Part shown: in pieces, positions 4,316-24,243 of the stretch | How positions within the stretch are numbered: position 1 is the stretch's first letter | Layout: every line of letters starts with the position of its first letter | From: Anaerolineae bacterium | Lineage (GTDB): Bacteria; Chloroflexota; Anaerolineae; Promineifilales; Promineifilaceae | Assembly: GCA_030425205.1 (NCBI GenBank) | Contig: JAUIAP010000016.1 | Span: forward strand, 55,956-119,955 | Direction: 5' to 3' | DNA: 64,000 bases | Program-made: the position numbers and the translations under genes | The notes under the pieces: generated by a model | What the model was told of the DNA's origin: nothing | Seen by the model: the letters and a program-made list of their open reading frames with translations, nothing else | Database searches by the model: none

Positions 4316-5584
4316 TTGCTAAACCGGATTGTCGCCCAACGTGATAGCCTTGCCTTCCTCATCGCCACGACATTGGCCTATGGATTGGACTATCTGTTTA
4401 ACGTCGTCAGCGGTCGCTGGCTGGGTAATGAACAGTTCGGCACGCTCGTCGCGTTGGCGGGGGTCGGACAGATTCTCGTCGTCGGCTCGCGCGTCATCCA
4501 GACTGTAACGACCCGCTACATCTCCCGTTTTCGCGCCGATACGCACGAGGAGAAGGTGCGCCCATTTATCACGGCGGCCCTGCGCGTGGGCATCTGGGGC
4601 GGGTTGGGGATCACCGTTTTATTGTGTCTGTTAGCCTTTCCATTGGCACGATTTTTGCGAATCGAGGATATGTGGGCTGTTTTTGCGCTGTTGGGCGGGG
4701 TGGGGCTGATGGTGGTTCGGCCGATTATCGGCGGAACGCTGCAAGGTCAGCAACGCTTTCTCCCGCTCGGCATCATTCAAATTATTCAGGCATCCATCCG
4801 TCTCCTAGCTGGCGCACTCTTAATTCTCGCGGGTTGGGGCGCATTTGGCGCGATGATCGCCCTGCCGATTGCCAGTCTGATTGCGCTCGTTTATGGCGCG
4901 TGGCTCCTGCGCGATCTGCTCGGCGGCACCAGCACTGTTTCCAATACCACCCCACTGCGCGAACTCGCCCACTACTCTGGCTACACGGCGGCGGGGCTGA
5001 TCGGATTCGCGCTGCTCATCAACATGGACGCCATTCTCGTCAAACGTTTCTTCGACGCGGACACGGCAGGCGTTTACGGTGCGGCCGTCACGTTGGGCAA
5101 AGTGGTGCAATTTTTTCCCGTTGCCATCATCATGGTCTTGTTTCCAAAAGCTGCCCATCGGCAGGCGACTAAACGCAACCCTGCCGCCGTTCTACCCCCT
5201 GCATTCGCCCTCATTACGGCAGTCTGTCTCGGTGTCTCGATTCTTTACTTCGCCTTTCCCGATCTACTGGTCGGCACAATCTTTGGCGACAAATTTGAGA
5301 TCAGCGGGCGGACACTTGGCACGCTTGGCCTTGCCATGTGGTTGCTTTCGCTCACAAACGTCTGGCTCAACTACTTTCTGTCGCTCAATCGCGTGCGTAT
5401 CGTCTATCTCATCTGGACGGGTGTCATCACGCAATACATCGCCTTCAACATCTGGCACGATCAGCTTTGGCATCTACCGACCGTCATGGCAATCAATGCG
5501 TTGTGGCTGACCGTTGCTGGTGCAATTCTATTTGTGCGATCAAGCAGGGAAGTCACTTCATTGCAAGAAACCCATGCACCCTAA
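4316..5584 (+). CDS. Polysaccharide/oligosaccharide flippase (Wzx/MOP superfamily)
   Basis: The 422-aa product is almost entirely TM helices. It sits in a glycan-locus context. The start is TTG, preceded by GGGGGTG. The 3' end overlaps the next gene. Confidence 0.7.
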   Translation: MLNRIVAQRDSLAFLIATTLAYGLDYLFNVVSGRWLGNEQFGTLVALAGVGQILVVGSRVIQTVTTRYISRFRADTHEEKVRPFITAALRVGIWGGLGITVLLCLLAFPLARFLRIEDMWAVFALLGGVGLMVVRPIIGGTLQGQQRFLPLGIIQIIQASIRLLAGALLILAGWGAFGAMIALPIASLIALVYGAWLLRDLLGGTSTVSNTTPLRELAHYSGYTAAGLIGFALLINMDAILVKRFFDADTAGVYGAAVTLGKVVQFFPVAIIMVLFPKAAHRQATKRNPAAVLPPAFALITAVCLGVSILYFAFPDLLVGTIFGDKFEISGRTLGTLGLAMWLLSLTNVWLNYFLSLNRVRIVYLIWTGVITQYIAFNIWHDQLWHLPTVMAINALWLTVAGAILFVRSSREVTSLQETHAP

Positions 5585-16930: not shown

Positions 16931-16946
16931 ACGTTACCGATAACGT
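16931..16946. promoter_or_regulatory. Putative LacI-family operator (imperfect 16-bp palindrome)
   Basis: ACGTTACCGATAACGT has 7 of 8 symmetric pairs and a central CG. It ends 25 nt upstream of the LacI-family gene ATG. Confidence 0.4.
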
Positions 16947-16971
16947 GACGGTATGGAGCAGTAACAAGATC

Positions 16972-18021
16972 ATGAAGAAACGAATAACGATCGGTGACAT
17001 CGCAATAGCCGCTGGTGTTTCAAAGCAGACGGTATCACGAGCCATCAACGACAAAGATGAGATCAGTTTAGAGACAAAAGAGCGCATTATGCAACTGGTG
17101 CGTGAATTGGGCTATCGGCCGAATCGTCTCGCCCAAGCGATGAATAGCCAGCGCACGCGCATGGTTGGCCTAGTCGTTTCTGATATCACAAACGCCTTCT
17201 TCCCAGAAATAGCGCGTGGCGCACAAGACGCAGCGATGGCGCAAGATTACACGATTCTGATCGTTAACACCGATGAAAGTGCTGACCGAGAAATACAGAT
17301 GTTGGAACTGCTGGCGGCCCAGTCGGTTGATGGGATTATCTCCTTCACACACCAAATGACCGATCGACAGTTGCTCGATTTTGCGGATGGATTTCGGCCG
17401 ATTGTGATGATCAATCGCAACATCGAACATCCAAACATTAGCCGCATCATGGTTGACAACGGTCGGGGCGCGGAAATGGCCGTCGAACATCTCATCGAAC
17501 AAGGTCATCAACACATCGCCATGTTAAGCAACATAACGTTCGCACCCGGCCACGTGCGGCGCGTGCAAGGCTATTTGCGTGCCTTGAGCCGCCATCAGCT
17601 CCCCGACTATCTGCACAGCACAAACGCCTCAAGTGACGGTGGTTACAATGGCACCATCGCCTTGTTAGGCAACCATCCCCATGTGACCGCTATCTTTTGT
17701 TACAACGACATGATGGCAATTGGCGCATTGCGTGCGTGCCAAGCGACTGGCCGGCGCGTGCCAGAGGATATTGCCATCGTCGGGTTTGACGACATCCAGC
17801 TCATCTCAATGATCACCCCATCGCTCTCTTCGATTCACGTCGATAAGTATGAAATTGGCAAATTGGCATTCATGCGCGTGCTTGAACTGCTCGAAGATGA
17901 CACAAGAAAAGCAGGTGCCATCACATTAGAACCCTCAATCAAGGTGCGCGAATCATCCCAACGCCAATCGCAGCCTAAGATGCAGGTGCGTCAAGTCAAT
18001 TCTAGATCAACCTCTTCATAA
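16972..18021 (+). CDS. LacI-family transcriptional regulator
   Basis: The N-terminal HTH is 'ITIGDIAIAAGVSKQTVSRAINDK', followed by a periplasmic-binding-protein-like sugar-binding fold ('IVGFDDI'). The start is taken at MKKRITIGDI. Confidence 0.9.
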   Translation: MKKRITIGDIAIAAGVSKQTVSRAINDKDEISLETKERIMQLVRELGYRPNRLAQAMNSQRTRMVGLVVSDITNAFFPEIARGAQDAAMAQDYTILIVNTDESADREIQMLELLAAQSVDGIISFTHQMTDRQLLDFADGFRPIVMINRNIEHPNISRIMVDNGRGAEMAVEHLIEQGHQHIAMLSNITFAPGHVRRVQGYLRALSRHQLPDYLHSTNASSDGGYNGTIALLGNHPHVTAIFCYNDMMAIGALRACQATGRRVPEDIAIVGFDDIQLISMITPSLSSIHVDKYEIGKLAFMRVLELLEDDTRKAGAITLEPSIKVRESSQRQSQPKMQVRQVNSRSTSS

Positions 18022-19303: not shown

Positions 19304-19375
19304 TTGCGGGGACAGGATTCGAACCTGCGACCTCCGGGTTATGAGCCCGACGAGCTGCCTCTGCTCTACCCCGCG
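19304..19375 (-). tRNA. Initiator tRNA-Met (anticodon CAT), CCA not encoded
   Basis: The minus strand reads CGCGGGGTAGAGCAGAGGCAGCTCGTCGGGCTCATAACCCGGAGGTCGCAGGTTCGAATCCTGTCCCCGCAA. It has a C1-A72 mismatch and three G-C pairs closing the anticodon stem (GGG/CCC). It is near-identical in pattern to E. coli tRNA-fMet. Confidence 0.92.
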
Positions 19376-20591: not shown

Positions 20592-20646
20592 GGAGCGCGA
20601 CCAGCTTGGTCACCAATCAAACAAGCGACCAAGCTGATCGCGCTCC
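20592..20646. promoter_or_regulatory. 20-bp inverted repeat in a divergent intergenic region
   Basis: GGAGCGCGACCAGCTTGGTC (20592-20611) pairs with GACCAAGCTGATCGCGCTCC (20627-20646). There is one mismatch and a 15-nt loop. Confidence 0.5.
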
Positions 20647-20694: not shown

Positions 20695-20733
20695 TTGACT
20701 TAGTGTATTTTCTACACTATAATAGTTAGTGTA
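20695..20733 (+). promoter_or_regulatory. Consensus sigma-70-type promoter with embedded operator-like repeats
   Basis: The -35 is TTGACT (20695-20700), the spacer is exactly 17 nt, and the -10 is TATAAT (20718-20723). TAGTGTA-TTTTC-TACACTA (20701-20719) is a perfect 7-bp inverted repeat that fills the spacer. A third TAGTGTA lies at 20727-20733. The ATG of the next gene is at 20747. Confidence 0.7.
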
Positions 20734-20746
20734 ATCGAGACACGAA

Positions 20747-21814
20747 ATGTTAAATCTATTCAACAACTACCTACTCAAGCTGCGACAGGCAGCACAACCA
20801 GAAGACGTGTTTGGCAGATTGTCCGCCCCGCAAGCAGAATGTTTGCGCGAGTTGTATAGGGACATGGTGATCGAACTGCATCCCGACCACAATCAACTGC
20901 GCGTCGCAGAGGCGACGGAAGCGTTTAAGCTGCTACAAGAGTGGCACGAGGCGGCCAAGATCAAGGTGGCGGCTGGGACGTATGGCACAGAGCCAACGCT
21001 TGAGGTTTCTTCACGCCGACATCACTATGTCAGCGCAAAACCAGCCATCGCAGGTGATTTGAGTGATGTTTTTACGGCGCGTGCGGATGGTAAGCGCAAG
21101 GTTGTTGTGAAGGTGGTGCGCCATCCAAAAAACAATGACCTACTGCTGGCGGAAGCGACTGCGCTACGTGAGCTGCATGAGCATCTCGACCGCACGCCGC
21201 TACGCGCACATTTCCCCGTCCTAATCGAGACATTTCGTCTCAAAGATGAAAGCGGTGCAGAACGCCAGACAAACGTGTTGCGCCATGAGGCGGAGGTGTT
21301 TTCACTGGCCGACGTGCGGAAAAAGTATCCAGACGGGATTGATCCGGCGGATGCGGCGTGGATGTTCAATCGCATGATTGCGGCATTGGGCAAGACACAT
21401 GAGGTCGGGTTGGTGCATGGGGCGATTGTGCCGGAGCATGTGTTGATTCGGCCGAAAGATCACAACGGCATCCTGATCGACTGGTGTTACAGCGTGCGTT
21501 CAGGTGAACAGATCAAGGCGATCAGCCCATCCCGCAAGGCGTTCTACCCGCCCGAAGTGTTGCAAAAGTTAGCGGCAACACCCGCTACAGACTTATTTAT
21601 GGCGGCGCAATGTATGATCGAGATTCTCGGCGGCGATGTGGCAACGGGGCAACTGCCATCCAGTGTGCCGAAGCCAATTGCAGCCCTGCTACGTGCGTGT
21701 TTGATTCCTGCGCCGAAGCGACGTTATCAAAACGCCTGGCATATTTTTGACGATTTCAAAGAGATTTTAGAACGGCTTTATGGTGAACCTACGTTCAGGT
21801 CGTTCACGATGTAG
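20747..21814 (+). CDS. J-domain protein fused to a protein-kinase-like (probable pseudokinase) domain
   Basis: The J-domain pattern is 'LRELYRDMVIELHPDHNQ...ATEAFKLLQEWHEAAK', with HPD at 20879-20887. The kinase-like lobe has 'KVVVKVVRHP' (VAIK-like Lys) and 'LLLAEATALREL' (alphaC Glu). 'GLVHGAIVPEHVLI' replaces HRDxKPxN, so HGA stands in for HRD. 'ILIDWCYS' replaces DFG. Confidence 0.7.
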   Translation: MLNLFNNYLLKLRQAAQPEDVFGRLSAPQAECLRELYRDMVIELHPDHNQLRVAEATEAFKLLQEWHEAAKIKVAAGTYGTEPTLEVSSRRHHYVSAKPAIAGDLSDVFTARADGKRKVVVKVVRHPKNNDLLLAEATALRELHEHLDRTPLRAHFPVLIETFRLKDESGAERQTNVLRHEAEVFSLADVRKKYPDGIDPADAAWMFNRMIAALGKTHEVGLVHGAIVPEHVLIRPKDHNGILIDWCYSVRSGEQIKAISPSRKAFYPPEVLQKLAATPATDLFMAAQCMIEILGGDVATGQLPSSVPKPIAALLRACLIPAPKRRYQNAWHIFDDFKEILERLYGEPTFRSFTM

Positions 21815-21857: not shown

Positions 21858-22850
21858 ATGGGTTATTCAAAATGGAGCAATGCAGCATTCGATTCACGCC
21901 AAACAGACCGTAAGCGCACTGGCACAACGGCGTTCAAGTATGACAAACACGTGCGCCAAACAGGGGTTGTCAAGATCCACCCCGACATGGATCCGTATGG
22001 CAAAACGCGGGAGAGTCGCGACAGCGACGACCATCCCGAATCAGTATCAATCGCCGTCCTGTTTGACGTGACGGGTTCGATGGGACAGGTTCCGCGCGTC
22101 ATGCAAACAAAACTCGGCGCACTGATGCGTGTGCTGATCCAAAAGGGGTATCTCGAACATCCACAAGTGCTGTTTGGCGGTATTGGCGATGCCTATTGCG
22201 ACCGTGTGCCATTGCAAATCGGGCAGTTTGAGTCAGGTCTTGAGATGGACGACGATCTCGGCAAAATTTTCATCGAAGGTGGCGGCGGCGGTCAGGTATA
22301 CGAGAGCTATGAGCTTGGCGTGTACTTTATGGCGAAGCACACGTCGATCGATTGCTGGGAAAAGCGCGGCAAGAAAGGATATCTGTTCACGATTGGGGAC
22401 GAAAAGCCGTATGACGTCGTGCGCAAGGAGCAGATTGAGAAGCACATTGGGGACAAGGTGCGTGGGAATGTCGATTCGGCCGAAATTTTCAACGAGGCCC
22501 AGAAAATGTACGAACATTTCCACATCATTCCAACCAACACCGCACACGGCAAAAACCCCGCCATCCATGAGCATTGGCGCAAATACATGGGTGAGCGCGT
22601 GCTGATCTTGGACGACGAAACGGCCGTCTGCGAAACGATTGCGCTCGCCATCGCCCTCTGTGAAGGCACCATCGACGATCTGTACAGTGGAGTCGATGAT
22701 CTGGTCAGCGCAGGCTATGACGCGACAGCGACAAAGGCGGCAACGTCTGCCCTCAAGCCATACGCTACACGGCGTGAAGGGTCTCTCGTCAAAGTAGTCG
22801 CAGGTAAATTGAAAGCGGCTGTCGCTGGCGGCGACGACGGACGACTTTAG
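21858..22850 (+). CDS. von Willebrand factor A (vWA) domain protein
   Basis: AAGGAG lies 7 nt upstream of the ATG at 21858. The MIDAS-like motif is 'AVLFDVTGSMG', with 'FGGIGDAYCDRVPLQIGQFES', 'EGGGGGQVYESYE' and 'GYLFTIGDEKP'. There is no signal peptide. Confidence 0.7.
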   Translation: MGYSKWSNAAFDSRQTDRKRTGTTAFKYDKHVRQTGVVKIHPDMDPYGKTRESRDSDDHPESVSIAVLFDVTGSMGQVPRVMQTKLGALMRVLIQKGYLEHPQVLFGGIGDAYCDRVPLQIGQFESGLEMDDDLGKIFIEGGGGGQVYESYELGVYFMAKHTSIDCWEKRGKKGYLFTIGDEKPYDVVRKEQIEKHIGDKVRGNVDSAEIFNEAQKMYEHFHIIPTNTAHGKNPAIHEHWRKYMGERVLILDDETAVCETIALAIALCEGTIDDLYSGVDDLVSAGYDATATKAATSALKPYATRREGSLVKVVAGKLKAAVAGGDDGRL

Positions 22851-22914: not shown

Positions 22915-24243
22915 ATGCGACAAGCTATTCTAACCACCGATCTCGGCTTTGGTGACGCGGGTAAAGGGGCGATCACCGACTATCTGACACGCCAGCACAA
23001 CGCACACACTGTCGTGCGCTTCAACGGCGGCGCGCAGGCGGGGCATCGCGTTGTGACCGATAGCGGTGAACACGTCTTTTCCCAATTTGGCAGCGGCACG
23101 TTGGCAGGGGCGCGCACCCATCTTTCACGCTTTATGCTTGTCGAACCGTTGGCCATGCTAGCCGAAGCAGAACATTTACAGGAGCTAGGTATTCGTGATC
23201 CGTTTGGCATGACAACAATTGATGAACGCGCATTGGTGACAACACCGTTTCAGCGCGCGGTCAATCGGTTGAAAGAGCTGGCGCGCGGCGACGGGCGGCA
23301 CGGCAGCTGCGGGATGGGGATTGGCGAGACGATGGTCGATTGGCTGGCACATGGGGGGGATGTCCTCTATTGTGGCGACTTTTCCACCCCTACCCAACTC
23401 AAAGCCAAATTGCGCCATCTTCAGGCTGTCAACCAAGTCAAAGCGGCCACGCTGCGCGATCAACTCCCCGACACGCCACAGGCGCAACAGGAATGGGATT
23501 GTCTGCACGATCCCAACGCCGTAGACCGCATCATTGTGGCCTATGCCCCCTTTATTGAACTTGCGCATGTCGTTCCCAGCGACTACCTGCACCTTTTGCT
23601 TGGGCGTGATGGCACGATCATTTTTGAACCAGCCCAAGGAGTGCTGCTCGATGAGTGGTACGGGTTTCATCCGTATACGACGTGGAGCACAACCACATTG
23701 GCAAATGCAGAAACATTGCTACACGAAGCGGATTACAAGGGTAAAGTTGTGCGCATCGGCATCACGCGCGCCTACACCCCGCGACATGGCGCGGGCCCCT
23801 TGCCAACGGAAGGTGCCCAATTGACAGCACTACTGCCCGATGCACGCAATGGCTTTGATGCATGGCAGGAAGGGTTTCGAGTTGGCTGGCTCGATCTGGT
23901 GTTGTTGCGCTATGCGCTAAGCGTCGTCGGCAAGCTCGACGGGCTGGCCGTGACCTGTTTGGATCGCGTTGTGGGGTTGCCCGAGTTGAAGATTTGTACG
24001 AGTTATCGGGGGAGTGGCGAGATCGAAAAGTGGCAAGGGACAGTGGGAATTTCGGCCGAAAACGCCATTCTCGCCCATCAATCCCAATTAACCGCCGACC
24101 TCCTGCAAAGCCAACCCAACTTGCAGACGATCGATTCGGCCGAAACGCTATTAACAACTATCGAACGAGAGACAGGACTCGACGTGCTGATTGAAGGGTG
24201 GGGTGCGGCAGCGGATGCAAAGCGGAAAAGAGAAGGCGCGTAA
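22915..24243 (+). CDS. Adenylosuccinate-synthetase-family ligase, divergent (PurA-like paralogue)
   Basis: It aligns by eye with PurA motifs: GDAGKGA (GDEGKGK), VVRFNGGAQAGHR (VVRYQGGHNAGHT), GSCGMGIGETM (TTGRGIGPAY), FEPAQGVLLD (FEGAQGTLLD) and TRAYTPRHGAGPLPTE (KAYSTRVGAGPFPTE). The Asp-binding loop TTGRRRRTGW is replaced by AWQEGFRVGW. KLD becomes CLD. Confidence 0.75.
   Translation: MRQAILTTDLGFGDAGKGAITDYLTRQHNAHTVVRFNGGAQAGHRVVTDSGEHVFSQFGSGTLAGARTHLSRFMLVEPLAMLAEAEHLQELGIRDPFGMTTIDERALVTTPFQRAVNRLKELARGDGRHGSCGMGIGETMVDWLAHGGDVLYCGDFSTPTQLKAKLRHLQAVNQVKAATLRDQLPDTPQAQQEWDCLHDPNAVDRIIVAYAPFIELAHVVPSDYLHLLLGRDGTIIFEPAQGVLLDEWYGFHPYTTWSTTTLANAETLLHEADYKGKVVRIGITRAYTPRHGAGPLPTEGAQLTALLPDARNGFDAWQEGFRVGWLDLVLLRYALSVVGKLDGLAVTCLDRVVGLPELKICTSYRGSGEIEKWQGTVGISAENAILAHQSQLTADLLQSQPNLQTIDSAETLLTTIERETGLDVLIEGWGAAADAKRKREGA

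What the first reader, a model, noticed from the sequence alone, without database searches (positions are those of the whole stretch)
20695..20733. Near-consensus promoter whose spacer is a perfect operator palindrome
TTGACT-17 nt-TATAAT lies 24 nt upstream of the J-domain gene ATG, implying a very short, SD-less leader. The 17-nt spacer plus the first two bases of the -10 hexamer is TAGTGTA-TTTTC-TACACTA, a perfect 7-bp inverted repeat. A third TAGTGTA sits at about +4 to +10 (20727-20733). A strong core promoter occluded by symmetric sites is the classic architecture of tightly repressed modules such as toxins, defence genes and SOS-type genes. No regulator is encoded in the operon itself.
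Basis: seen in the sequence. Interest (0 to 1): 0.55.

Follow-up and report, generated by a model that had tools for sequence, protein, structure and literature searches.

The report
NrtR-type operators on a strong promoter
The palindrome inside this promoter is real, and it is one of two binding sites of the type used by NrtR, a known repressor family that responds to an NAD breakdown product. It probably switches on a widespread three-gene cassette of unknown function that large phages also carry.

Summary
TTGACT-17-TATAAT (20695-20723) carries a perfect TAGTGTA-N5-TACACTA palindrome (O1). The "third half-site" is the left arm of a second, imperfect operator (O2, 20727-20745) that ends 2 nt before the ATG.

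Within the window alone this is weak evidence, because such palindromes occur at chance frequency. Comparison settles it: all 40 Chloroflexota loci that have upstream sequence keep the same layout. That layout is -35 abutting O1, a -10 overlapping O1, and O2 23-26 bp downstream, ahead of the same three genes (J-domain atypical kinase, vWA-fold protein, PurA-like enzyme).

TTAGTGT-N7-ACACTAA fits the published NrtR box (21-bp palindrome, GT-N7-AC core). In 84 independent loci chosen only for an NrtR gene, the motif occurs about 65 times where about 1 is expected, mostly beside nrtR. NrtR genes are physically linked to this cassette in Actinobacteria, a Bacteroidota MAG and two metagenome contigs.

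Best reading: an unlinked NrtR-family repressor occludes the promoter and is released by ADP-ribose or a related NAD-derived ligand. The regulator gene is not in the window, and neither binding nor the transcription start was tested. The regulatory mechanism is of a known kind. The target cassette, shared with large and jumbo phages, is uncharacterised.

The parts
20695..20700 (+). -35 hexamer TTGACT
   Evidence: TTGAC(T/A) directly abuts O1 in 38 of the 40 Chloroflexota loci; the other two (L035, L041) differ by a 1-nt offset or one substitution.
20700..20720 (.). Operator O1: 21-bp NrtR-type box TTAGTGTATTTTCTACACTAT (core TAGTGT-N7-ACACTA at 20701-19, perfect). It fills the -35/-10 spacer and overlaps 1 nt of the -35 and 3 nt of the -10.
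   Evidence: It scores 29.3 bits with a matrix trained on NrtR-adjacent sites. It has the GT-N7-AC core described in PMC2330246.
20718..20723 (+). -10 hexamer TATAAT. Its first two bases are the last two bases of the O1 right arm.
   Evidence: A TAnnnT hexamer sits at this position in all 40 loci.
20726..20746 (.). Operator O2: TTAGTGTAATCGAGACACGAA (core 20727-45, 1 mismatch). It covers the predicted transcription start (about 20730, inferred) and the whole leader up to 1 nt before the ATG.
   Evidence: It scores 21.0 bits, within the range of the training sites. A second site lies 23-26 bp downstream of O1 in all 40 loci.
20747..21814 (+). Gene 1: J-domain plus atypical protein-kinase-like protein, 355 aa. 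The HPD motif is invariant in the family. The catalytic loop reads HGAxxPxH and DWC replaces DFG.
   Evidence: It matches phage family phrog_3043 'kinase' at 5e-54.
21858..22850 (+). Gene 2: vWA-fold protein, 330 aa, with an invariant MIDAS-like DVTGSMG motif. It has no Pfam family.
   Evidence: AlphaFold2 model has mean pLDDT 73.5. All top PDB matches are vWA or integrin I domains. It matches phrog_2971 at 1.8e-67.
22915..24243 (+). Gene 3: adenylosuccinate-synthetase-like enzyme, 442 aa. It is a divergent paralogue and lacks the GTTTGR loop.
   Evidence: Pfam PF00709 at 1.7e-63, but NCBIfam purA scores are far below their cut-offs. PDB alignment. It matches phrog_1211.

Best explanation
The element is a near-consensus sigma-70-type promoter carrying two operators of the NrtR family type (21-bp palindrome TTAGTGT-N7-ACACTAA).

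- O1 fills the spacer and overlaps both hexamers.
- O2 covers the transcription start and the short leader.

A dimeric NrtR-family repressor (Nudix-like sensor domain plus winged-helix DNA-binding domain) is encoded elsewhere in this genome. Bound at both sites, it would block RNA polymerase from binding and initiating. When its Nudix-like domain binds ADP-ribose, or a related NAD-derived nucleotide, it would leave the DNA. The strong promoter would then express a three-gene cassette: a J-domain atypical kinase, a vWA-fold protein and a PurA-like enzyme.

Shown here:
- The sequence architecture and its conservation.
- The fit to the NrtR box.
- The genomic association of this motif, and of this cassette, with nrtR genes.

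Inferred, not shown:
- That an NrtR exists in this genome and binds these sites.
- That it represses.
- The identity of the ligand.
- The position of the transcription start.
- What the cassette does.
For: 1. Conservation. The window and 39 other Chloroflexota loci, whose gene-1 proteins are only 45-55% identical (87% for the closest), all keep the same layout: TTGAC(T/A) next to O1, a TAnnnT -10 overlapping O1, and O2 23-26 bp downstream. Apart from an extra site adjoining the promoter in L027, only one stray site with at most 1 mismatch occurs in about 430 kb of their flanks.

2. Protein site, not a hairpin. Deviations in one arm are not compensated in the other: 0 of 38 in O1 and 1 of 25 in O2. 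The leader has no unusual RNA fold (z = +1.65), and there is no Rfam match.

3. Fit to the family. Rodionov et al. 2008 state that most NrtR motifs share a 21-bp palindrome with core GT-N7-AC, that tandem sites occur, and that ADP-ribose suppresses DNA binding (PMC2330246). The experimentally mapped M. smegmatis site also has an N7 centre (PMC6800001).

4. Independent association. Of 84 loci fetched only because they encode an NrtR of the clade of the L042 protein, 46 carry TAGTGT-N7-ACACTA with at most 1 mismatch. There are 65 sites in 461 kb, against about 1 expected by hand calculation (37/4^12 per position). Of these, 39 lie within 150 bp of nrtR. The neighbouring genes include nadV, nadM, pncA, pncB and nadA. 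A matrix built from these sites picks out only O1 and O2 in the window.

5. Physical linkage of nrtR to this cassette, in four different arrangements:
- nrtR as the first gene in 38 Actinobacteria loci.
- nrtR as the last gene in the Bacteroidota MAG locus L042, with the same box upstream.
- nrtR, then the box, then the cassette in L091.
- A divergent pair, nrtR - box - cassette, in L087.

6. NrtR is reported in Chloroflexi (Roseiflexus sp. RS-1).
Against: - No gene with an NrtR winged-helix domain is present in the 64-kb window or within 6 kb of any of the 41 Chloroflexota loci. The regulator in this genome is therefore assumed, not seen.
- I could not show that any Chloroflexota NrtR uses this exact box, because the taxonomy of the metagenome NrtR loci is unknown.
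- The cassette has no recognised NAD-metabolism gene, unlike classical NrtR regulons.
- The Actinobacteria versions use a different operator (TCTC-N5-GAGA), so box and regulator co-vary, and the ligand may differ as well.
- No binding, transcription-start or expression data exist.
Confidence: 0.78

Rival explanations
1. The palindromes are operators for a different, unidentified transcription factor, for example an HspR-like MerR protein or another helix-turn-helix repressor. On this reading the factor recognises a similar 7-N5/7-7 palindrome in Chloroflexota, and the link to NrtR holds only in other phyla.
For: No nrtR gene was found in the window or next to any Chloroflexota locus. The cassette encodes a J-domain protein, which would suit heat-shock control. 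From my own memory, not tested here, the HspR site CTTGAGT-N7-ACTCAAG has the same 7-N7-7 geometry.
Against: The Chloroflexota sites match, base for base, the consensus derived from NrtR-adjacent sites elsewhere (TAGTGTA-N5-TACACTA). The same box stands before the same cassette where nrtR is adjacent (L042, L087, L091). No other regulator gene is conserved near the cassette.
Confidence: 0.14
2. The inner inverted repeat (ACACTA...TAGTGT, made of the right arm of O1 and the left arm of O2) is an NrdR box. On this reading the cassette is controlled by the ribonucleotide-reductase repressor NrdR.
For: The NrdR consensus acaCwAtATaTwGtg (PMC4009431) resembles ACACTATACTTAGTGT, which is found in the 15 loci (mostly Oscillochloris-type) where the sites are 23 bp apart. 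The cassette also contains a nucleotide-metabolism enzyme.
Against: The distance between the inner arms varies from 4 to 7 nt, whereas TAGTGT-N7-ACACTA is fixed in all 80 sites. NrdR sites are two 16-bp boxes 15-16 bp apart, which is not seen here. Loci with a single site (L042, L043, L091) have only the GTGT...ACAC orientation.
Confidence: 0.03
3. The repeats act as nucleic-acid structure, either an RNA leader hairpin or attenuator or a DNA cruciform, rather than as protein-binding sites.
For: In four loci (L003, L026, L029, L033) O2 is the exact reverse complement of O1, spacer included, giving a palindrome of about 45 bp. Spacer complementarity is slightly above the null (3.1 against 2.56 +/- 0.17 matches).
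Against: Arm substitutions are not compensated. O1 lies upstream of the predicted start, so it would not be transcribed. The fold of 20695-20750 is ordinary (z = -1.24) and the leader is less structured than shuffles. There is no Rfam match.
Confidence: 0.03
4. It is a chance palindrome inside a chance promoter match.
For: Perfect 7-N5-7 inverted repeats occur at the expected rate in this window: 6 observed against 4.2 expected.
Against: The full architecture recurs in all 40 Chloroflexota loci compared, despite about 50% protein divergence.
Confidence: 0.01

Closest known systems
NrtR (Nudix-related transcriptional regulator) operators of NAD-metabolism operons. Examples are Synechocystis and Shewanella oneidensis (Rodionov et al. 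2008, PMC2330246) and Mycobacterium smegmatis (Gao et al. 2019, PMC6800001).
   Same: It is a 21-bp palindrome with a GT-N7-AC core. The sites lie in the promoter and are often tandem. The logic is that of a repressor. ADP-ribose as anti-repressor is inferred by analogy. The exact consensus TAGTGTA-N5-TACACTA is the one found beside nrtR, pncA, pncB and nadV genes in metagenome loci.
   Different: The target is not an NAD biosynthesis or salvage operon but an uncharacterised cassette (J-domain kinase, vWA, PurA-like). The regulator gene is unlinked here. Nothing has been tested experimentally.
NrtR-family regulators recruited to pathways other than NAD. Examples are BtAraR for arabinose (PMC4666351) and the Nudix-HTH regulators of ADP-ribose-related conflict systems (Iyer et al. 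2022, PMC9503650).
   Same: These set the precedent that the family controls operons outside NAD synthesis, including systems thought to respond to ADP-ribose during virus-host conflict.
   Different: Those papers do not describe this cassette: adenylosuccinate, PurA, DnaJ and J-domain are absent from PMC9503650. The ligand here is unknown.
Kinase - hypothetical protein - adenylosuccinate-synthetase-like cassette of Bixzunavirus mycobacteriophages (I3 gp270-273, Cali gp252) and of large IMG/VR viral contigs.
   Same: All three proteins are homologous and in the same order. The phage kinase also has the HPD motif.
   Different: The phage copies have no TAGTGT boxes. Phage I3 instead carries one near-perfect M. 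smegmatis-type NrtR palindrome inside the kinase gene. The function is unknown in both settings.

Membership tests
NrtR operator (NrtR box) | A 21-bp palindrome with a conserved GT-N7-AC core | tested here: met
   O1 is TTAGTGT-ATTTTCT-ACACTAT. O2 is TTAGTGT-AATCGAG-ACACGAA. The definition is quoted from PMC2330246.
NrtR operator (NrtR box) | The site lies in the promoter region of the regulated operon, and is often tandem | tested here: met
   O1 lies between the -35 and the -10, and O2 lies over the start region. A tandem site at S. oneidensis prs-nadV is described.
NrtR operator (NrtR box) | The motif is genomically associated with nrtR genes | tested here: met
   There are 65 sites in 461 kb of NrtR loci against about 1 expected, and 39 are within 150 bp of nrtR. 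There are none in the 38 Actinobacteria loci. The box plus an adjacent nrtR plus this cassette occur together in L042, L087 and L091.
NrtR operator (NrtR box) | An nrtR gene in the same genome | not testable with these tools
   None is present in the 64-kb window or in the Chloroflexota flanks. The rest of the genome is not available. NrtR is reported in Roseiflexus.
NrtR operator (NrtR box) | NrtR protein binds the site and ADP-ribose releases it | not testable with these tools
   This needs a gel shift or footprint with and without ADP-ribose.
NrtR operator (NrtR box) | The regulated genes belong to NAD or ADP-ribose metabolism | tested here: inconclusive
   None of the three proteins matches a known NAD enzyme. 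The family is known to control other pathways as well.
Sigma-70-type promoter | -35 and -10 hexamers close to consensus with a 16-18 nt spacer | tested here: met
   The match is 11 of 12 with a 17-nt spacer. Both hexamers are conserved in position in 40 loci.
Sigma-70-type promoter | Transcription starts about 7 nt downstream of the -10 | not testable with these tools
   This needs 5'-RACE or dRNA-seq.
NrdR box | Two 16-bp ACAC...GTGT palindromes 15-16 bp apart, upstream of nrd genes | tested here: not met
   There is only one inner repeat, its length varies from 16 to 19 bp, and there is no nrd gene.
LexA / SOS box | Match to a known LexA motif, and lexA or DNA-repair genes sharing the site | not tested
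   The known LexA motifs I recall (for example GAAC-N4-GTTC) do not resemble TAGTGT-N7-ACACTA. No regulon scan was possible.

The most novel reading that the evidence does not exclude
The cassette (J-domain atypical kinase, vWA-fold protein, PurA-like enzyme) may be a previously unrecognised module that responds to NAD depletion or ADP-ribose. Bacteria from at least three phyla would keep it silent under NrtR-family repressors and switch it on when NAD is being destroyed, for example by NADase toxins or phage-triggered immunity. Large and jumbo phages carry the same three genes, possibly to do the same job during infection. If so, this promoter is a natural reporter for that signal, and the cassette could encode a new nucleotide-salvage, repair or counter-defence chemistry built on a PurA-like ligase with an altered amino-acid-binding loop.
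Probability: 0.3. Interest if true: 0.75.

Novelty: new member of a known kind. Interest (0 to 1): 0.5.

Why it matters
The regulatory device itself is textbook: a repressor occluding a strong promoter, from a repressor family described in 2008. Its value lies in what it points to.

- It assigns a likely input signal (ADP-ribose, or NAD turnover more broadly) to a large protein family with no Pfam model. More than 7,000 clusters matched the vWA-fold protein at E <= 1e-5.
- It extends the same assignment to the two partner proteins. The same gene trio occurs in Chloroflexota, Actinobacteria, a Bacteroidota MAG, Bixzunavirus mycobacteriophages and many large viral contigs.
- It turns an anonymous cassette into a testable hypothesis about NAD-linked stress or phage-host conflict.
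- It gives a defined 52-bp fragment for binding and reporter experiments.

Tried and rejected
- Regulator next to the operon in Chloroflexota: none. All-against-all clustering of flanking ORFs found only the three cassette genes conserved. An HMM of the linked NrtR proteins found nothing in the window or in 41 Chloroflexota loci.
- The LacI-family gene 3 kb upstream (16945-18021): rejected as the regulator, because the neighbours differ between loci while the operators stay the same.
- PADLOC defence models: only weak kinase-domain matches for gene 1 and none for genes 2 and 3.
- Organism names for NrtR homologues, to find a Chloroflexota NrtR: the cluster look-up returned no names, and the supplements of the 2008 paper are not held. 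This question stays open.
- Literature on the cassette: full-text searches combining NrtR, adenylosuccinate, DnaJ, vWA, mycobacteriophage and Cluster C returned nothing relevant.
- RNA explanations: there is no Rfam family, the leader fold is unremarkable, and there is no covariation.
- A PDB sequence profile search for gene 2 gave nothing. The fold was obtained only through AlphaFold2 and Foldseek.
- The one stray box in Oscillochloris locus L010 (position 381): no ORF of 100 aa or more starts next to it and I could not tie it to a gene, so I treated it as chance.

Full report
**1. The observation**

The sequence is as described.
- -35: TTGACT, 20695-20700.
- Spacer: 17 nt.
- -10: TATAAT, 20718-20723.
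- ATG of the first gene: 20747, so 23 nt lie between the -10 and the ATG.
- O1: TAGTGTA-TTTTC-TACACTA, 20701-20719, a perfect inverted repeat.

The third TAGTGTA (20727-20733) is followed after five bases by GACACGA. It is therefore the left arm of a second operator, O2 (20727-20745). O2 ends two bases before the ATG.

Inside this one window the statistics are modest.
- Perfect 7-N5-7 repeats occur 6 times against 4.2 expected.
- Promoter matches of at least 11/12 occur twice against 0.41 expected.
- This promoter is the best match in its 15-kb neighbourhood.

**2. The genes downstream**

The promoter precedes three genes on the + strand.
- Gene 1 (20747-21814) has a J-domain and a protein-kinase-like domain. 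Both Pfam matches fall below their curated cut-offs. In an alignment of 29 homologues the HPD motif of J-domains is invariant. The kinase catalytic loop reads HGAxxPxH, not HRDxKxxN, and DWC stands in place of DFG.
- Gene 2 (21858-22850) matches no Pfam or NCBIfam model. It has an invariant DVTGSMG motif. Its AlphaFold2 model (mean pLDDT 73.5) matches only vWA and integrin I domains in the PDB.
- Gene 3 (22915-24243) is a divergent adenylosuccinate-synthetase paralogue. Pfam gives 1.7e-63, but the purA equivalog scores are far below their cut-offs. It keeps the GDxGKG, AGH, GIG, GxGPxPTE and RVGWLD motifs and lacks the GTTTGR loop.

**3. Conservation**

A scan of one genome per species found relatives of gene 1 in 247 confirmed stretches, of which the best 80 loci were kept. 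All loci with enough sequence keep the three genes in the same order: Chloroflexota, 38 Actinobacteria and one Bacteroidota MAG.

The closest relative, an Ardenticatenaceae MAG, is 84% identical. The other Chloroflexota are 45-55% identical.

The upstream DNA nevertheless has the same design in the window and in 39 other Chloroflexota loci.
- TTGAC(T/A) lies immediately before a TAGTGT-N7-ACACTA site.
- A TAnnnT hexamer starts with the last two bases of that site.
- A second site lies 23-26 bp downstream.

Apart from these promoter sites and one extra site adjoining the L027 promoter, about 430 kb of flanking DNA holds only one stray site with at most 1 mismatch. No neighbouring gene is conserved.

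Deviations from the consensus in one arm are almost never matched by a compensating change in the other: 0 of 38 for O1 and 1 of 25 for O2. This is what a protein-binding site predicts and what a hairpin does not. The leader RNA has no unusual fold and nothing matches Rfam.

**4. Which protein binds**

In all 38 Actinobacteria loci the cassette is directly preceded by a gene whose product has a NUDIX domain and the NrtR winged-helix domain. In the Bacteroidota MAG locus L042 such a gene directly follows the cassette, and a TAGTGTTGTATTTACACTT site stands upstream.

The family was defined by Rodionov et al. 2008. They report the following (PMC2330246).
- Most NrtR motifs share a 21-bp palindrome with a conserved GT-N7-AC core.
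- Tandem sites occur.
- ADP-ribose suppresses DNA binding.
- Roseiflexus, a member of the Chloroflexi, has an NrtR regulon.

TTAGTGT-N7-ACACTAA fits that description. The mapped M. smegmatis site, GTTTTCGA-N7-TCGAAAAC, also has a seven-base centre (PMC6800001).

**5. An independent test**

I collected loci solely because they encode an NrtR related to the L042 protein. Eighty came from a metagenome scan and four from look-ups.
- 46 of the 84 loci carry TAGTGT-N7-ACACTA with at most 1 mismatch.
- In the 82 loci with gene coordinates there are 65 sites in 461 kb, and 39 of them lie within 150 bp of nrtR.
- I expect about one site by chance (37/4^12 per position, my own calculation).
- The neighbouring genes include nicotinamide and nicotinate phosphoribosyltransferases, NMN adenylyltransferase-Nudix, nicotinamidase-like proteins and quinolinate synthase. 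This is therefore the classical NAD-related NrtR clade.
- The extended consensus of these sites is TAGTGTA-N5-TACACTA, exactly the O1 sequence.
- A weight matrix built only from them scores O1 at 29.3 bits, O2 at 21.0 bits and the next best position in the 64-kb window at 6.5 bits.

Two of these loci also contain the cassette.
- L091 has nrtR, then TTGACT...TTAGTGTAATAACTACACTAA, then the kinase gene.
- L087 has nrtR and the cassette diverging from a shared region that holds the box.

**6. Mechanism**

O1 overlaps one base of the -35 and three bases of the -10. O2 covers the predicted start and the leader. A dimer on each site would exclude RNA polymerase. That is an inference from position.

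By analogy with characterised members, the repressor would be released by ADP-ribose. In this clade the Nudix signature is degenerate (RxLxDK in place of REUxEE). In the 2008 study such degeneracy went with loss of hydrolase activity.

The Actinobacteria versions differ.
- Their NrtR paralogue keeps an intact RELAEETG signature.
- It has a different recognition-helix motif, HAGNFHRK instead of DKRNFRKK.
- It is paired with different operators, two or three TCTC-N5-GAGA palindromes just after a TGGAC...TATGTT promoter. Of 29 exact matches in 494 kb, 28 lie there.

Regulator and box have therefore changed together while the link to the cassette has been kept.

**7. What is missing**

- No NrtR gene lies in the window or within 6 kb of any Chloroflexota locus.
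- I could not reach the rest of this genome or put names on the metagenome NrtR loci.
- Binding, the ligand, the transcription start and repression are all untested.

**8. The cassette elsewhere**

All three proteins match phage protein families.
- Bixzunavirus mycobacteriophages such as I3 and Cali carry, in order, a kinase, a hypothetical protein, a small ORF and an adenylosuccinate-synthetase-like gene.
- In IMG/VR, 56 viral contigs, many of 100-440 kb, carry the vWA-fold gene. Of these, 33 have all three genes, and four (three distinct) also have an NrtR homologue nearby.
- The whole 156-kb I3 genome holds exactly one match to the M. smegmatis NrtR palindrome (1 mismatch in 16 specified bases). 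It lies inside the kinase gene of this cassette. The expected number per genome is about 0.002 by my calculation.

I found no paper on the cassette. Iyer et al. 2022 describe Nudix-HTH regulators of other ADP-ribose-related conflict systems.

**9. Verdict**

- The finding is real.
- The interpretation as a repressor-occluded promoter is right in outline.
- The operator belongs to a known family.
- The target operon is a new and widely distributed member of that family's regulons, whose function remains to be found.

Noticed in passing
window 20592-20646: A stem-loop with a 20-bp stem: GGAGCGCGACCAGCTTGGTC, a 15-nt loop, then GACCAAGCTGATCGCGCTCC (1 mismatch). It sits 48 nt upstream of the -35, in the divergent region between the FMN-dependent dehydrogenase gene and the cassette. 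The RNA fold is -37 kcal/mol with z = -9.1. It is unique in the window and is not obvious in the closest relative, L002.
   Followed up: partly
L166 4588-4610 (phage I3, NC_067270.1 151399-151421): This is the only match in the whole 156-kb phage genome to the experimentally mapped M. smegmatis NrtR palindrome GTTTTCGA-N7-TCGAAAAC (GTTATCGActccgagTCGAAAAC, 1 mismatch). It lies inside the kinase gene gp270 of the homologous cassette, just after the conserved LIDWCYSV motif. About 0.002 matches are expected per genome.
   Followed up: partly
L170-L225 (IMG/VR viral contigs): The vWA-fold gene occurs on 56 viral contigs, many of 100-440 kb. Of these, 33 carry kinase, vWA and PurA-like genes. Four (L186, L188, L192, L206; L186 and L206 look the same) also encode an NrtR homologue within a few kb. 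None has a TAGTGT-N7-ACACTA box.
   Followed up: partly
L003, L026, L029, L033 (promoter regions): In these four loci O2 is the exact reverse complement of O1, including the non-conserved 7-nt spacer. This gives a palindrome of about 45 bp centred on the -10 region. Across all loci the outer arms tend to read GTGTCAT.../...ATGACAC and the inner arms TACAC/GTGTA. The reason is unknown.
   Followed up: partly
L044-L081, about 4930-5260 in each locus: The Actinobacteria form is a four-gene operon, with nrtR-like, kinase, vWA and PurA-like genes. The NrtR paralogue has an intact Nudix signature. The promoter is TGGAC...TATGTT, followed by two or three TCTC-N5-GAGA palindromes about 17 bp apart.
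   Followed up: partly
L119, L120, L131, L135, L147, L151, L156 and others: A pair of genes recurs beside nrtR: an SPFH/band-7-like protein of about 336 aa and an NAD-kinase-like protein of about 306 aa (11-13 loci). These may be the 'nrtX-nrtY' genes of unknown function mentioned by Rodionov et al. 2008. I did not check this.
   Followed up: no
L082 9007-9160 and L084 6696-6850: Clusters of three or four TAGTGT-N7-ACACTA boxes stand upstream of a nicotinamidase-like gene of about 271 aa. In L082 this gene is followed by a 251-aa protein, a PP2C phosphatase and a 573-aa protein.
   Followed up: no
window 19304-19375 (- strand): A tRNA-Met (CAT) gene lies between the DUF58 gene and the FMN-dependent dehydrogenase gene.
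   Followed up: yes
window 31894 (- strand): This is the only other promoter-like match of at least 11/12 in the 64 kb: TTGACA-18-TCTAAT.
   Followed up: no
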